A stretch of DNA of 32,000 bases, from the NCBI RefSeq assembly GCF_000010065.1, contig NC_006576.1, positions 390,001-422,000 of the forward strand, in the 5' to 3' direction. Positions 30,043 to 32,000 of this stretch are shown here, one piece after another. The DNA is from Synechococcus elongatus PCC 6301 (lineage in GTDB: Bacteria > Cyanobacteriota > Cyanobacteriia > Synechococcales > Synechococcaceae). Within the stretch, counting starts at the first letter, position 1. Each line of letters opens with the position of its first letter. The notes below the pieces were generated by a model that searched no databases, was not told where the DNA came from, and saw nothing but the letters and a program-made list of their open reading frames with translations. Both the position numbers and the translations under genes were made by a program.

Positions 30043-31368
30043 TTACAATTGCTGCGGTGGACTGAAGACCAGTTGCAATTGCAACGACCACTCGCGTCGC
30101 GATCGCCGTTGGAGTTGAATCTCGCGGATAAATTCCCGAAAGAAAAAGCGCCGCTCCACTTCCGAAAGATCCTGCCAGAACTGGGGAATAGCAACGGCTT
30201 GCACCAATTCCGGCAGATTGACGGGCGAGAGTTGGGCTTGGCGATCGCGAAGTTGCACCAGTTCCGTTTGAAGCTGAAGCCGTCGGATAGCAGCTGTCTC
30301 CGCGTCGAGGATGCCCCGCGCTTCTAAATCTGGCAGTTCAACGCTCAGAATCTGCTGCAGTTCCGCTTGGCGACTAGCGATCGCAGACTTAGCCGGATTT
30401 TGCTCTGGTTGACCCAGTGCTGAAACCGCGATCGGGAGTTCCTGGCAAATGGTTTGAATCACCGTTTGCAGGCACATATCGTAGGCGATCGCGCTGCAAC
30501 GCGGGCTTTGTTGACAGGCAGCAGGCGATCGCAGATAAAGGTATTCACGGTCGCTGCGGTGGGGTTTGGTGCTGCCAACAATTAGATGCGCCTGACAGGT
30601 TTGGCATTGCACCAGTCCGGCCAAGCAACGGGGTGCACTGGCAGTTTTGGGGGGGAGGCGTCGATTGCGCCGCAAAATGCGATCGATCTGCGCGGCTTCT
30701 TCTCGCGATACCAAGGCGGGATGGGTGTCGGCCACGATCGCTCCACTGCCGTAGACCAAATCGCCGCGATAGGCCGGATGACTCAGCCAGCGGCGCACGG
30801 TCATGACTGCGATCGCCCGCTGATGTTTTTGCGAGACATAGCGGGCAGCCCCTCGCAGGGAGCCATAAATCAGGAAATGCGCGACCCCATCTCGCACCAG
30901 TGCAGCTGCAGCCCGATCGATCGCATAGCGATCTTTGCCGCGACGGTAGCCAAAGGGCGCAGGGCCGGGAGGTGGCAAGGCTTGCAATCGATTTCGGGCA
31001 TGACCAGCTTTTAACCGATCGCGTTGCTGCGATCGCTGTACTTCGGCCCAAAGTGGCAGTAAATCCAGTCCAGCAGCGGAATCGAGGGGGAGAGGTTCGT
31101 CTAAACCTACGATTTGCACTTGCACGGACTGTTGCTGACAGTGCTTCAGAACGGGCAACAAGGCATCAAGGCGATCGCCCAGATCGTGGAGTTGCCGAAG
31201 CCAAAGGCGATCGCCCGGCTGCAATTCCGTCAATAGCTGCTGTAACTGAGGGCGATCGGGGGCGGGCAATCGGTCACAAAAAACCCGATCGGGGGACTCT
31301 GGCCAAGTCTCGAGGGCAACCAGCGTTTCCCAAGTCGGATTCAAAGCGTAGTAGGCGACGATCGCCAC
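30043..31368 (-). CDS. Large serine recombinase family homologue with substituted catalytic residues (predicted inactive)
   Basis: 441-aa ORF with a GTG start. An in-frame TGA 4 codons upstream (31378-31380) excludes a longer N-terminus. It has a resolvase-like N-domain, a recombinase domain (PAPFGYRRGKDRYAIDRAAA..), a Cys-rich zinc-ribbon-like segment (CLAGLVQCQTC...C..C) and a C-terminal coiled-coil-like region. Confidence 0.75.
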   Translation of the reverse strand: MAIVAYYALNPTWETLVALETWPESPDRVFCDRLPAPDRPQLQQLLTELQPGDRLWLRQLHDLGDRLDALLPVLKHCQQQSVQVQIVGLDEPLPLDSAAGLDLLPLWAEVQRSQQRDRLKAGHARNRLQALPPPGPAPFGYRRGKDRYAIDRAAAALVRDGVAHFLIYGSLRGAARYVSQKHQRAIAVMTVRRWLSHPAYRGDLVYGSGAIVADTHPALVSREEAAQIDRILRRNRRLPPKTASAPRCLAGLVQCQTCQAHLIVGSTKPHRSDREYLYLRSPAACQQSPRCSAIAYDMCLQTVIQTICQELPIAVSALGQPEQNPAKSAIASRQAELQQILSVELPDLEARGILDAETAAIRRLQLQTELVQLRDRQAQLSPVNLPELVQAVAIPQFWQDLSEVERRFFFREFIREIQLQRRSRREWSLQLQLVFSPPQQL

Positions 31369-31541
31369 GACCGTCCGTCAGTAGGCTACTTTTTCAGCCA
31401 GCTAAGCATAGCCCGCGGTTTTTTGCCCACCGACCCGATCGGATGCTCAGCTTCTAGGTAGCGAATGACGGTCATTTCAAGCCAAGGCGGATCCGAGCAG
31501 CCAACTAAACTCTGATTTAGTTAGAGACTCAACTGACATCG

Positions 31542-31797
31542 ATCGCCATCAACCGGATCGCACCCTTGAGGATCACTGCGATCGCAGCACTGCCACACTT
31601 CTTGTCACTATCAGCGGTAGAAGCAGGGGAAACACTCTAAGAAACCTATCGACAATTGTGGTCACAATTAGGCGTGCAATTGGATGGCGATCGCCCGCCC
31701 GCTCACAACTTGTTATTAACGCGGCAGTGGTTATTTATTGTTCCGCTTAGTCGTGAAAGCCACCTGCCGATTAACGTCAATGCCTTGGGTTTCGCGG
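31542..31797 (+). pseudogene. Fragment of an ATP adenylyltransferase / Ap4A phosphorylase-like gene (C-terminal domain only, in-frame stop, truncated at both ends)
   Basis: HNLLLTRQWLFIVPLSRESHLPINVNALGFA matches the conserved YNLL(L/M)T..W...VPRS....N..G(F/Y)(A/C)G block. There is an in-frame TAA at 31638-31640. No N-terminal HIT-like half lies upstream, and homology ends at about 31797. Confidence 0.55.
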
Positions 31798-31839
31798 ATC
31801 GCACCCGAAAGGCCAGGGGTTCGAATCCCCTTAGCTCCA
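31795..31839 (+). other. 3' portion (positions about 29-73) of a tRNA-Ala(CGC) gene; no 5' half is present
   Basis: Canonical register throughout: anticodon loop aT-CGC-ac, 3' anticodon-stem strand CCGAA, variable loop AGGCC, T arm AGGGG-TTCGAAT-CCCCT, acceptor 3' strand TAGCTCC (U70 Ala identity position) and discriminator A. No D arm or GGGGCTA 5' strand lies upstream. Confidence 0.7.
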
Positions 31840-32000
31840 TCTTTCAGGAATTGAATGACTGCGAATTGCAGGCTGATCGCAGTAGCGCTAAAGGGTGTTC
31901 AACAGCTCACAGATTAAGTTACCAAGAACTGTTATTGGTTGGGATGCTGTTAGGTTGCTGACGCTATTTCATTTTACTTGCAGAGGGAAAAACTCTTCCA

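What the first reader, a model, noticed from the sequence alone, without database searches (positions are those of the whole stretch)
31542..32000. Fossil integration junction: 12-bp direct repeat equal to a tRNA-Ala anticodon stem-loop, a trapped gene fragment, and a composition break
The 12-mer CGGATCGCACCC occurs at 31554-31565 and again at 31795-31806. The second copy is positions 29-40 of a partial tRNA-Ala(CGC) that runs to its discriminator base at 31839. Anticodon CGC and the U70-bearing acceptor strand TAGCTCC-A agree with each other. The D arm and 5' acceptor strand are missing.

The 229 bp between the two repeats encodes only the C-terminal block of an Ap4A-phosphorylase-like protein, with an in-frame TAA at 31638. 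That gene fragment is therefore cut at both repeat copies.

Downstream of the tRNA fragment the sequence has no HIP1. By my hand count over the last 160 nt it is about 43% G+C, visibly lower than the rest of the window. tRNA 3' fragments bounded by short direct repeats are the classic scar of site-specific integration. The neighbouring recombinase homologue looks catalytically dead. An AT-rich 7-bp inverted repeat (31503-31522) lies in the same spacer.

The window ends here, so I cannot tell whether an island starts at about 31840 or whether this is only a relic.
Basis: partly seen in the sequence, partly recalled or inferred. Interest (0 to 1): 0.65.

Follow-up and report, generated by a model that had tools for sequence, protein, structure and literature searches.

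The report
Dead integron edge with tRNA fossil
The tRNA-Ala fragment, the trapped gene piece and the drop in G+C are all real, but they mark the outer edge of an old, disabled integron in Synechococcus elongatus whose gene cassette differs in every strain examined; the 12-bp repeat is a coincidence.

Summary
All the sequence facts hold: the 12-mer occurs twice, there is a tRNA-Ala(CGC) 3' piece, an Ap4A-phosphorylase piece, 43% G+C and no HIP1 at the window end.

The 12-mer pair is background for this HIP1-rich genome and exists only in this lineage. Its first copy lies in an integron-integrase pseudogene fragment, not in the Ap4A piece.

Extending the window through PCC 7942 and four other S. 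elongatus genomes shows a degenerate chromosomal integron between ilvC and a conserved recombinase-like gene. It has:
- an integron-integrase (intI) pseudogene;
- an attI junction at G|TT;
- cassettes transcribed away from intI;
- attC sites whose first box pairs with each cassette's own first bases.

Five strains carry five different cassette sets, including Hachiman and PARIS.

In the window, attC is 31903-31962 (minus strand). The low-GC DNA is a cassette with a 474-aa ORF. The tRNA piece lies 63 bp beyond the array end, in a flank shared by all strains. That flank also holds Ap4A, intI and ilvC fragments. One junction lies inside a HIP1 site, and the Ap4A/tRNA junction is at a HIP1-like site. 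The tRNA piece decays independently in each strain.

This is a new member of a known kind and of moderate interest.

The parts
30043..31368 (-). Conserved cyanobacterial gene resembling a large serine recombinase (441 aa). It is a core neighbour of the locus, not part of the island.
   Evidence: Pfam Resolvase and Recombinase domains. Orthologues at about 49% identity are listed from many, mostly filamentous, cyanobacteria. The family lacks the catalytic Arg residues, and S. elongatus also lacks the Ser.
31387..31454 (-). 68-bp copy of the 3' end of ilvC (last 22 codons plus TA of the stop), 18 nt upstream of the recombinase-like start codon. It is the distal member of a direct repeat that brackets the whole variable locus.
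   Evidence: 87-94% identical to the real ilvC 3' end in three other strains, each of which also carries this distal copy; in the fifth strain and in PCC 7942 the repeat itself was not examined.
31499..31589 (+). R_A: a 91-bp fragment derived from codons ~56-86 of an integron-integrase gene, with two in-frame stops.
   Evidence: 77/91 identical (E = 6e-23) to R_B at extended coordinates 34239-34329, which is the in-frame end of the intI' ORF.
31577..31797 (+). Ap4A-phosphorylase pseudogene fragment covering the middle of the C-terminal domain. It is joined to R_A inside the shared HIP1 site TGCGATCGCAG (31577-31587) and to the tRNA piece at the HIP1-like GCGGATCGC.
   Evidence: PF09830, E = 2.4e-9, profile 10-66/95. 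75% aa and 73% nt identity to the intact 280-aa Ap4A phosphorylase of S. elongatus IITB7, which lies elsewhere in that genome.
31638..31640 (+). TAA stop, private to the strain of this window (TAC elsewhere).
31795..31839 (+). Dead 3' fragment of tRNA-Ala(CGC), positions 29-73.
   Evidence: It is present in all five strains with a different private mutation in each. Logan contig ends fit an intact parent gene elsewhere in the genome.
31840..31902 (.). 63-bp conserved flank beyond the last attC, inferred to be the original right half of attI (ancestral core GTTGAAC).
   Evidence: 86-100% identical among the four aligned strains and also present in the fifth. It begins with TTGAAC directly after the G of the last attC.
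31903..31962 (-). attC site of the resident cassette. R'' is GTCAGCA-AC-CTAAC (31962-31949). R' is G at 31903 plus the cassette's own first bases, TTAGTGCTGAC, at extended coordinates 33924-33914.
   Evidence: The reconstituted site folds as an imperfect hairpin, -18.1 kcal/mol, z = -5.7. The same logic holds in three other cassettes.
31964..32000 (-). 3' end of the cassette ORF (474 aa, DUF8370/DUF8371, 38% G+C). It continues to extended coordinate 33388 in PCC 7942.
   Evidence: There is a weak PADLOC hit to PDC-M36A, E = 4e-6.

Best explanation
The region is the outer edge of a degenerate chromosomal integron that lies between ilvC and a conserved recombinase-like gene in Synechococcus elongatus.

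**Layout (extended coordinates)**
- About 2 kb beyond the window is an integron-integrase pseudogene (intI', 34075 onward).
- Next to it is attI, with the crossover at G|TT, 33925/33924.
- A single 2-kb cassette was inserted there. It runs leftwards on the minus strand: a 474-aa ORF, then its attC at 31962-31903.
- Everything left of 31903 is the flank that lay beside attI before cassettes arrived.

**The flank**
The flank is a patchwork of dead gene pieces: tRNA-Ala(CGC) 3' half, Ap4A phosphorylase, an intI fragment and the ilvC 3' end. The intI/Ap4A junction lies inside a shared HIP1 site, and the Ap4A/tRNA junction is at a HIP1-like site. The patchwork predates the split of the five strains and is decaying neutrally.

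**Shown and inferred**
- Shown: the anatomy, the conservation pattern, the cassette junction logic and the integron type of the integrase.
- Inferred: the tRNA piece was stitched in by microhomology or HIP1-type illegitimate recombination, or is left over from an older tRNA-targeting element.
- Inferred: with intI dead, cassettes are now exchanged mainly by homologous recombination in the conserved flanks after natural transformation.

The 12-bp direct repeat has no role.
For: **Integrase type**
intI' hits TIGR02249 (integron integrase) at E = 4e-12. Longer cyanobacterial relatives reach 3e-42 and 6e-34, and the next ORF in L129 matches profile positions 121-198.

**Cassettes**
- Five strains carry five different cargo sets between the same flanks, all transcribed away from intI':
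  - PCC 7942: 474-aa ORF;
  - CP168031: Hachiman, HamB E = 6.6e-123, HamA 3.8e-8;
  - IITB4: PARIS, AriA 5e-28, AriB 5e-23;
  - IITB7: methyltransferase fragment, glyoxalase and GFA, with canonical attCs;
  - CP143871: SLFN_AlbA_2/HATPase.
- The attI junction reads ...TAG|TT in the four strains that retain intI' (IITB7 lacks it), followed by cassette-specific sequence.
- Each cassette's R'' box is complementary to G plus that cassette's own first bases: 5+7 nt with a 2-nt bulge, 9/9, 7/7 and 9/9.
- The sites fold as imperfect hairpins, with z from -0.75 to -5.7.

**Composition**
The cassette is 38-40% G+C, and the stretch 31840-34238 that holds it has one HIP1 where 8.2 are expected.

**Flank**
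- It is conserved at 86-100% in all strains, while the tRNA piece has five different private changes.
- The R_A/Ap4A junction lies in the shared TGCGATCGCAG.
- The 148-bp deletion in CP168031 lies between two CGATCGCC copies and removes the first 12-mer.

**12-mer**
Background frequency is shown.
Against: - No attC covariance model (IntegronFinder) was available. The attC calls rest on hand-read boxes, complementarity and folding, and two of the five folds are not better than shuffles.
- The intI catalytic domain, including the integron-specific insertion, is missing from every S. elongatus copy, so integron type rests on the N-terminal domain only.
- In PCC 7942 the inter-strain sequence break is at the R'' edge (31955/56), not at R'. 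This needs an extra fusion or deletion event between two similar attCs.
- Hachiman (about 4.7 kb) is large for a cassette.
- The intact parental tRNA-Ala(CGC) was not seen directly. Its existence is inferred from where k=31 assembly contigs stop.
- The history of the tRNA/Ap4A/intI patchwork is not resolved.
Confidence: 0.78

Rival explanations
1. The 45-nt tRNA piece is a true att identity block (attP or attR type, anticodon-loop class). It was left by a tyrosine-integrase element that once used tRNA-Ala(CGC), perhaps the element that brought the integron platform. The Ap4A piece is that element's arm.
For: - The piece starts 3 nt before the anticodon loop and runs exactly to the discriminator, which is the usual extent of anticodon-loop-class att blocks (general knowledge of tRNA-targeting islands).
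- The five-strain consensus of the piece equals the parental sequence inferred from the contig ends.
- It lies about 220 bp upstream of, and in the same orientation as, the ancestral attI-intI platform.
Against: - There is no partner tRNA or repeat within 32 kb to the left or 9.4 kb to the right.
- The only integrase remnants are of the integron type.
- Another junction in the same patchwork (R_A/Ap4A) and the CP168031 deletion endpoints sit at HIP1 or HIP1-like sites, and this junction (GCGGATCGC) does too.
- Strain-specific DNA does not begin at the fragment.
- The 12-bp repeat proposed as the core is lineage-specific.
Confidence: 0.17
2. The Ap4A-tRNA junction arose by an internal deletion in a locus where an Ap4A phosphorylase gene was followed directly by a tRNA-Ala(CGC) gene. 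That block was then copied here.
For: Both pieces have the same orientation and abut with a possible CGG microhomology.
Against: In S. elongatus IITB7 the intact Ap4A phosphorylase gene has no tRNA anywhere in the 12.8 kb fetched around it.
Confidence: 0.03
3. The tRNA-like piece is functional, for example as a processing signal, a terminator mimic or a small RNA for the neighbouring ORF.
For: It is retained in all five strains and is slightly better conserved than the Ap4A piece.
Against: - Each strain has private changes that break T-stem pairs, add a base or alter the anticodon, with no compensation.
- The only RNA-family match below E = 0.01 is a sub-threshold tmRNA hit (17.3 bits, gathering score 47, E = 6.9e-05) covering the T arm.
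- The annotated ORF across it is a chimera, and it is interrupted by a stop in this strain.
Confidence: 0.02

Closest known systems
Xanthomonas chromosomal integron downstream of ilvD, with mostly inactivated intI (Gillings et al. 2005, as summarised in bioRxiv 10.1101/2025.06.18.660453)
   Same: It is a sedentary integron fixed at one chromosomal site next to a branched-chain amino-acid biosynthesis gene. intI is inactivated by truncation, stops or frameshifts. The platform is ancestral to the group, while the cassette arrays differ between lineages.
   Different: The host is a cyanobacterium and the neighbour is ilvC, not ilvD. The arrays are very short, one to four cassettes. The locus is bracketed by a 68-bp duplication of the ilvC 3' end. 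The distal flank holds tRNA, Ap4A and intI debris.
Sedentary chromosomal integrons as stores of anti-phage cassettes (Vibrio; mobile integrons encoding defence systems)
   Same: Cassettes encode recognised defence systems, here Hachiman and PARIS in sister strains. Cassette turnover in a naturally transformable host fits the report that transformation drives cassette shuffling (titles and abstracts listed; PMC12614218).
   Different: The integrase here is dead. The arrays are tiny. Whole multi-gene systems of 2.4-4.7 kb sit in single cassettes. No activity was tested.
tRNA-linked genomic islands (P4-type integrase, 3' tRNA fragment as attR)
   Same: There is a 45-nt 3' tRNA fragment from the anticodon arm to the discriminator, next to low-GC strain-specific DNA, with a tyrosine-recombinase pseudogene in the neighbourhood.
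   Different: There is no intact tRNA partner and no flanking direct repeat of the tRNA block. The recombinase is of integron type. The boundary of the variable DNA is an attC/attI crossover, not the tRNA fragment.

Membership tests
Functional tRNA-Ala gene | Complete cloverleaf with 5' acceptor strand and D arm | tested here: not met
   ARAGORN finds no tRNA in the window, in L001 or in the four sister loci. The sequence upstream of 31795 is Ap4A-coding.
Functional tRNA-Ala gene | Anticodon loop, T arm and a U70-bearing 3' acceptor strand typical of tRNA-Ala | tested here: met
   The 28-mer is identical to more than 120 tRNA-Ala genes. The loop AUCGCAC is identical to those of L077 and L032 tRNA-Ala(CGC).
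tRNA-targeting integrative island (att scar) | The tRNA 3' block is repeated at the other end of the island as part of an intact tRNA | tested here: not met
   There is no tRNA in 32 kb to the left or 9.4 kb to the right, nor in the sister loci.
tRNA-targeting integrative island (att scar) | Strain-specific DNA begins at the edge of the tRNA block | tested here: not met
   Positions 31840-31955 are conserved in all five strains. The break is at the attC.
tRNA-targeting integrative island (att scar) | The fragment is identical to part of an intact tRNA gene of the same genome | tested here: inconclusive
   This is only inferred. Logan contigs end at 31838 and at ...GGTTCGA, as expected for k=31 if a parent gene carries CGGATCGCACCCGTAAGG...TAGCTCC.
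tRNA-targeting integrative island (att scar) | The short direct repeat (the 12-mer) is the conserved att core | tested here: not met
   The first copy is altered or deleted in the other strains aligned. Repeats of this kind are at background frequency.
Integron | Integron-type tyrosine recombinase (IntI) | tested here: inconclusive
   The N-terminal domain matches TIGR02249 (4e-12; relatives 3e-42). The gene is truncated in every strain, so the IntI-specific insertion in the catalytic domain cannot be checked.
Integron | attI next to intI, with cassette insertion at G|TT | tested here: met
   The conserved ...TAG|TT junction is followed by four different cassette starts. The inferred ancestral core is GTTGAAC.
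Integron | Cassettes end in attC: an imperfect palindrome with R'' (..YAAC) and R' (GTT...), where R'' pairs with the cassette's own first bases | tested here: met
   This holds for four cassettes (5+7 with a bulge, 9/9, 7/7, 9/9), plus two canonical attCs in IITB7. No attC covariance model was run.
Integron | Cassette ORFs oriented away from intI, with array content variable between strains | tested here: met
Integron | Integrase-dependent excision or insertion activity | not testable with these tools
   intI' is a pseudogene. This needs experiments.
Ap4A phosphorylase (ATP adenylyltransferase) | N-terminal domain (PF19327) plus a complete C-terminal domain (PF09830) | tested here: not met
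   Only profile positions 10-66 of 95 of PF09830 are present. The intact 280-aa paralogue is elsewhere in the genome.

The most novel reading that the evidence does not exclude
A model, naturally transformable cyanobacterium keeps a dead integron as a live exchange slot. With intI inactivated, whole defence systems are still swapped between strains by homologous recombination in two conserved flanks: the attI-intI' side and the side with the tRNA and Ap4A debris. HIP1 palindromes act as preferred breakpoints for the illegitimate joins that built and keep remodelling those flanks. A weaker corollary is that the tRNA-Ala piece records delivery of the integron platform by a tRNA-targeting element.
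Probability: 0.25. Interest if true: 0.55.

Novelty: new member of a known kind. Interest (0 to 1): 0.4.

Why it matters
S. elongatus PCC 7942 is a main laboratory model for cyanobacteria. The paper searches run here turned up no description of an integron in it. With a single attC and a truncated intI, the locus may well escape automated integron finders.

Recognising it has three practical consequences:
- It explains a strain-variable, low-GC locus that carries recognised defence systems (Hachiman, PARIS) in sister strains.
- It gives a defined and presumably dispensable slot with conserved flanks.
- It offers several natural examples of rearrangement junctions at HIP1 sites, which bears on the old question of what HIP1 does.

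For the scan itself, it shows that a tRNA fragment beside a composition break need not be an att scar.

Tried and rejected
- **Genome-wide scan for the parental tRNA.** The 28-mer of the T arm and acceptor turned out to be pan-bacterial. The hits still served to type the fragment.
- **Exact scans with the 44/45-mer.** Viral and metagenome contigs gave nothing.
- **Rfam at a permissive threshold.** Only weak T-arm matches appeared.
- **Word-indexed homologue search with the Ap4A piece.** It found only S. elongatus fragments. The exhaustive search then found the intact paralogue.
- **Ap4A gene natively next to tRNA-Ala.** Rejected for IITB7.
- **ilvC ancestrally next to the recombinase-like gene in distant cyanobacteria.** Not supported in Phormidium, where a glyoxalase gene precedes it. 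The reading of the 68-bp ilvC repeat as a former integration target therefore remains an inference.
- **A crude gap-free AAC...GTT scan for attC.** Too noisy to use on its own.
- **Papers on PCC 7942 islands.** They do not mention this locus.

Full report
**Identity of the window and its extension**

The last 2 kb of the window differ at three bases from Synechococcus elongatus PCC 7942 (CP000100.1). One difference is 31640, where the window has TAA and PCC 7942 has TAC. The PCC 7942 locus L001 is the reverse complement of the window (L001 position = 41369 minus window position). It extends the view to coordinate 41368, and "extended coordinates" below means this scale.

**Check of the observation**

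The sequence facts hold.
- The 12-mer CGGATCGCACCC occurs only at 31554 and 31795.
- Positions 31795-31839 read as tRNA positions 29-73.
- ARAGORN finds no intact tRNA, and Rfam gives only weak T-arm matches.
- The 28 nt of T arm and acceptor are identical to tRNA-Ala(GGC/CGC) genes of more than 120 species. The loop AUCGCAC equals that of true tRNA-Ala(CGC) genes.
- The Ap4A-like segment hits PF09830 at E = 2.4e-9, covering profile positions 10-66 of 95.
- The last 160 nt are 43.1% G+C, exactly as hand-counted, against 57% for the window. From 31840 to 34238 there is one HIP1 where 8.2 are expected.

**The 12-bp repeat is a coincidence**

- In 41 kb there are eight exact direct repeats of at least 12 bp within 300 bp. 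Five of them contain the HIP1 core.
- In sister strains the first copy reads CCGATTGCACCC or TCGAACGCACCC, or is removed by a 148-bp deletion between two CGATCGCC copies.
- The first copy is not in Ap4A sequence. It lies in a 91-bp segment, R_A (31499-31589). R_A is 85% identical (E = 6e-23) to R_B at 34239-34329, and R_B is the in-frame end of an integrase N-terminal ORF.
- Homology of the Ap4A piece to the genome's own intact gene starts at 31577, inside the HIP1 site TGCGATCGCAG that both partners share.

**What lies to the right**

In PCC 7942 the window end is followed by several features:
- a 474-aa ORF on the minus strand (31964-33388, 38% G+C);
- about 690 bp of non-coding DNA;
- a 110-aa ORF with only the SAM-like N-domain of a tyrosine recombinase (34075-34407);
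- then genes of host-like composition.

The short integrase is of the integron type. It hits TIGR02249 at 4e-12, longer cyanobacterial relatives reach 3e-42 and 6e-34, and in L129 the next ORF continues the same profile.

**Comparison of five strains**

The same frame occurs in CP168031, IITB7, IITB4 and CP143871. Reading in window orientation, it runs:
1. recombinase-like gene;
2. ilvC 3' copy;
3. R_A;
4. Ap4A piece;
5. tRNA piece;
6. a conserved stretch;
7. cargo;
8. intI' (absent in IITB7);
9. ilvC.

The cargo differs every time:

| Strain | Cargo | Evidence |
|---|---|---|
| PCC 7942 | 474-aa ORF | |
| CP168031 | Hachiman | HamB 6.6e-123, HamA 3.8e-8 |
| IITB4 | PARIS | AriA 5e-28, AriB 5e-23 |
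| IITB7 | methyltransferase fragment, glyoxalase, GFA | |
| CP143871 | SLFN_AlbA_2/HATPase protein | |

All cargo genes point away from intI'.

**Cassette logic**

Read on the cassette-sense strand, which is the window's minus strand:
- The intI' side ends ...TAG|TT in the four strains that retain intI', followed by strain-specific sequence.
- After the last cargo ORF comes a box ending in ..YAAC. It is complementary to G plus that cassette's own first bases:
  - PCC 7942: GTCAGCA-AC-CTAAC against GTTAG-TGCTGAC;
  - Hachiman: ACAGCTAAC against GTTAGCTGT;
  - PARIS: GCTCAAC against GTTGGGC;
  - CP143871: AGGTCTAAC against GTTAGACCT.
- This is what integron cassettes require, because R' of an attC is split on insertion.
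- About 55-90 nt further on comes G|TT and the next unit.
- IITB7 has two textbook attCs between its genes.
- The reconstituted sites fold as imperfect hairpins with bulged bases, with z = -5.7, -2.8, -1.6, -0.75 and -3.8.

In window coordinates, attC is 31962-31903 and the crossover is 31903|31902. The ORF stop is 31966-31964.

The bases after the last attC begin TTGAAC. The ancestral attI core would therefore have been GTTGAAC, a perfect GTTRRRY. The 63 bp at 31840-31902 are the old right half of attI (an inference).

One irregularity remains. In PCC 7942 the sequence break against the other strains is at the R'' edge (31955/56). The rest of the attC is shared with a small cassette that the other four strains carry. 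This implies a fusion between two similar attCs.

**The flank and the tRNA piece**

Left of 31903 every strain has the same patchwork:
- tRNA piece (31795-31839);
- Ap4A piece (31577-31797);
- R_A;
- a 44-bp spacer;
- a 68-bp copy of the ilvC 3' end (31387-31454), 18 nt from the recombinase-like start codon.

Details of the pieces:
- The other member of the ilvC repeat is the real end of ilvC on the far side of the locus. This was checked in three sister strains. It looks like the footprint of an insertion that targeted the ilvC 3' end (an inference).
- The Ap4A piece is 75% aa and 73% nt identical to the intact 280-aa gene of the same species. That gene sits elsewhere with no tRNA beside it.
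- The tRNA piece carries a different private change in each strain: A42; an extra C; two G-to-A changes; C-to-T in the anticodon; G-to-T in the anticodon plus an extra C. None is compensated.
- The five-strain consensus equals the sequence that must exist elsewhere in the genome to explain why k=31 Logan contigs end at 31838 in one lineage and at ...GGTTCGA in another.

The piece is therefore a dead copy of the host's own tRNA-Ala(CGC) 3' half.

The joins R_A/Ap4A and R_B/MFS, and the endpoints of the CP168031 deletion, all fall at HIP1 or HIP1-like sequences. The Ap4A/tRNA join (GCGGATCGC) does too. I therefore favour microhomology-type joining for the Ap4A/tRNA junction. I cannot exclude that the 45-nt block is a true att remnant of an older tRNA-targeting element.

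**Comparison with known systems**

- The nearest analogue is the Xanthomonas integron fixed downstream of ilvD. Its intI is mostly inactivated and its arrays are lineage-specific.
- Defence systems in integron cassettes, and cassette shuffling by natural transformation, are already described.
- Integron integrases are known in cyanobacteria.
- The paper searches run here did not turn up a description of this locus in S. elongatus.

**Verdict**

The feature is a new member of a known kind, of moderate interest.

Noticed in passing
window 30043-31368 (minus strand): The 441-aa protein resembling a large serine recombinase belongs to a family conserved at about 49% identity in many, mostly filamentous, cyanobacteria. 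All members aligned lack the catalytic Arg residues (LEELGDS in place of LDRLGRS). S. elongatus also lacks the nucleophilic Ser (AYYALNP against AYxYSDP). It looks like a domesticated, inactive recombinase. Its best NCBIfam match is XisF, far below the cutoff.
   Followed up: partly
window 31387-31454; L125 9822-9889 and 13333-13400; L126 9822-9889 and 13890-13957; L123 9915-9982 and 3830-3897: A 68-bp direct repeat of the ilvC 3' end (EAEHPIESVGK..FSWLKK*) brackets the whole integron locus in the three sister strains where both copies were located, and the window carries the distal copy. This suggests the platform arrived by insertion into the ilvC 3' end.
   Followed up: partly
window 31540-31695 against L123 9822-9829: Strain CP168031 has a 148-bp deletion whose endpoints are two copies of CGATCGCC. 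Together with the R_A/Ap4A and R_B/MFS joins inside TGCGATCGCAG, this gives several rearrangement junctions at HIP1 sites in one small locus.
   Followed up: partly
window 30550, 31392, 31640: Three single-base differences from PCC 7942 occur in the last 2 kb. One creates the TAA inside the annotated 131-aa chimeric ORF (Ap4A piece plus read-through of the tRNA piece). The window is therefore from a close relative, not PCC 7942 itself.
   Followed up: no
L001 3563-7116 (extended coordinates 34253-37806): In PCC 7942 only, a 3.55-kb block of host-like G+C interrupts intI' at about codon 59. It comprises R_B, an MFS transporter, two DMT_YdcZ genes, an epimerase and MarR. The MFS stop codon lies inside R_B. 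The origin of the block was not worked out.
   Followed up: no
L127 7758-8173; L128 7762-8173: Other cyanobacteria carry the same ~330-bp module: the attI region with repeated GGATAAC-like motifs plus the first ~58 codons of intI. It is 75-88% identical at the DNA level. Here too intI is truncated and sits next to divergently oriented defence-like genes (SRA-HNH, DUF4365). Truncated intI thus recurs across lineages.
   Followed up: partly
L129 1-2600: A small contig from another cyanobacterium shows a frameshifted intI with at least three cassettes, including a TacA-type antitoxin pair. One of its attCs closely resembles that of the CP143871 cassette in S. elongatus.
   Followed up: no
L123 9420-9612; L126 10543-10338; L125 10576-10338; L133 10443-10247: A small cassette of about 190-240 bp, beginning TTAGCTGGCTCC... 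(TTAGATTGCTCC in CP143871), is the last unit of the array in four strains. It overlaps a 50-aa ORF called on the opposite strand in CP168031 and IITB7. Its body is missing in PCC 7942, which keeps only the 3' part of its attC.
   Followed up: no
L001 7517-7533 and 7670-7686 (extended coordinates 33836-33852 and 33683-33699): A perfect 17-bp inverted repeat with a 136-nt spacer lies in the 530-bp leader between the cassette start and the 474-aa ORF. Its function is unknown.
   Followed up: no
L001 1-3012 (extended coordinates 38357-41368): A large PAS/GAF gene at 36-47% G+C lies further right. It is a second low-GC segment in this neighbourhood.
   Followed up: no
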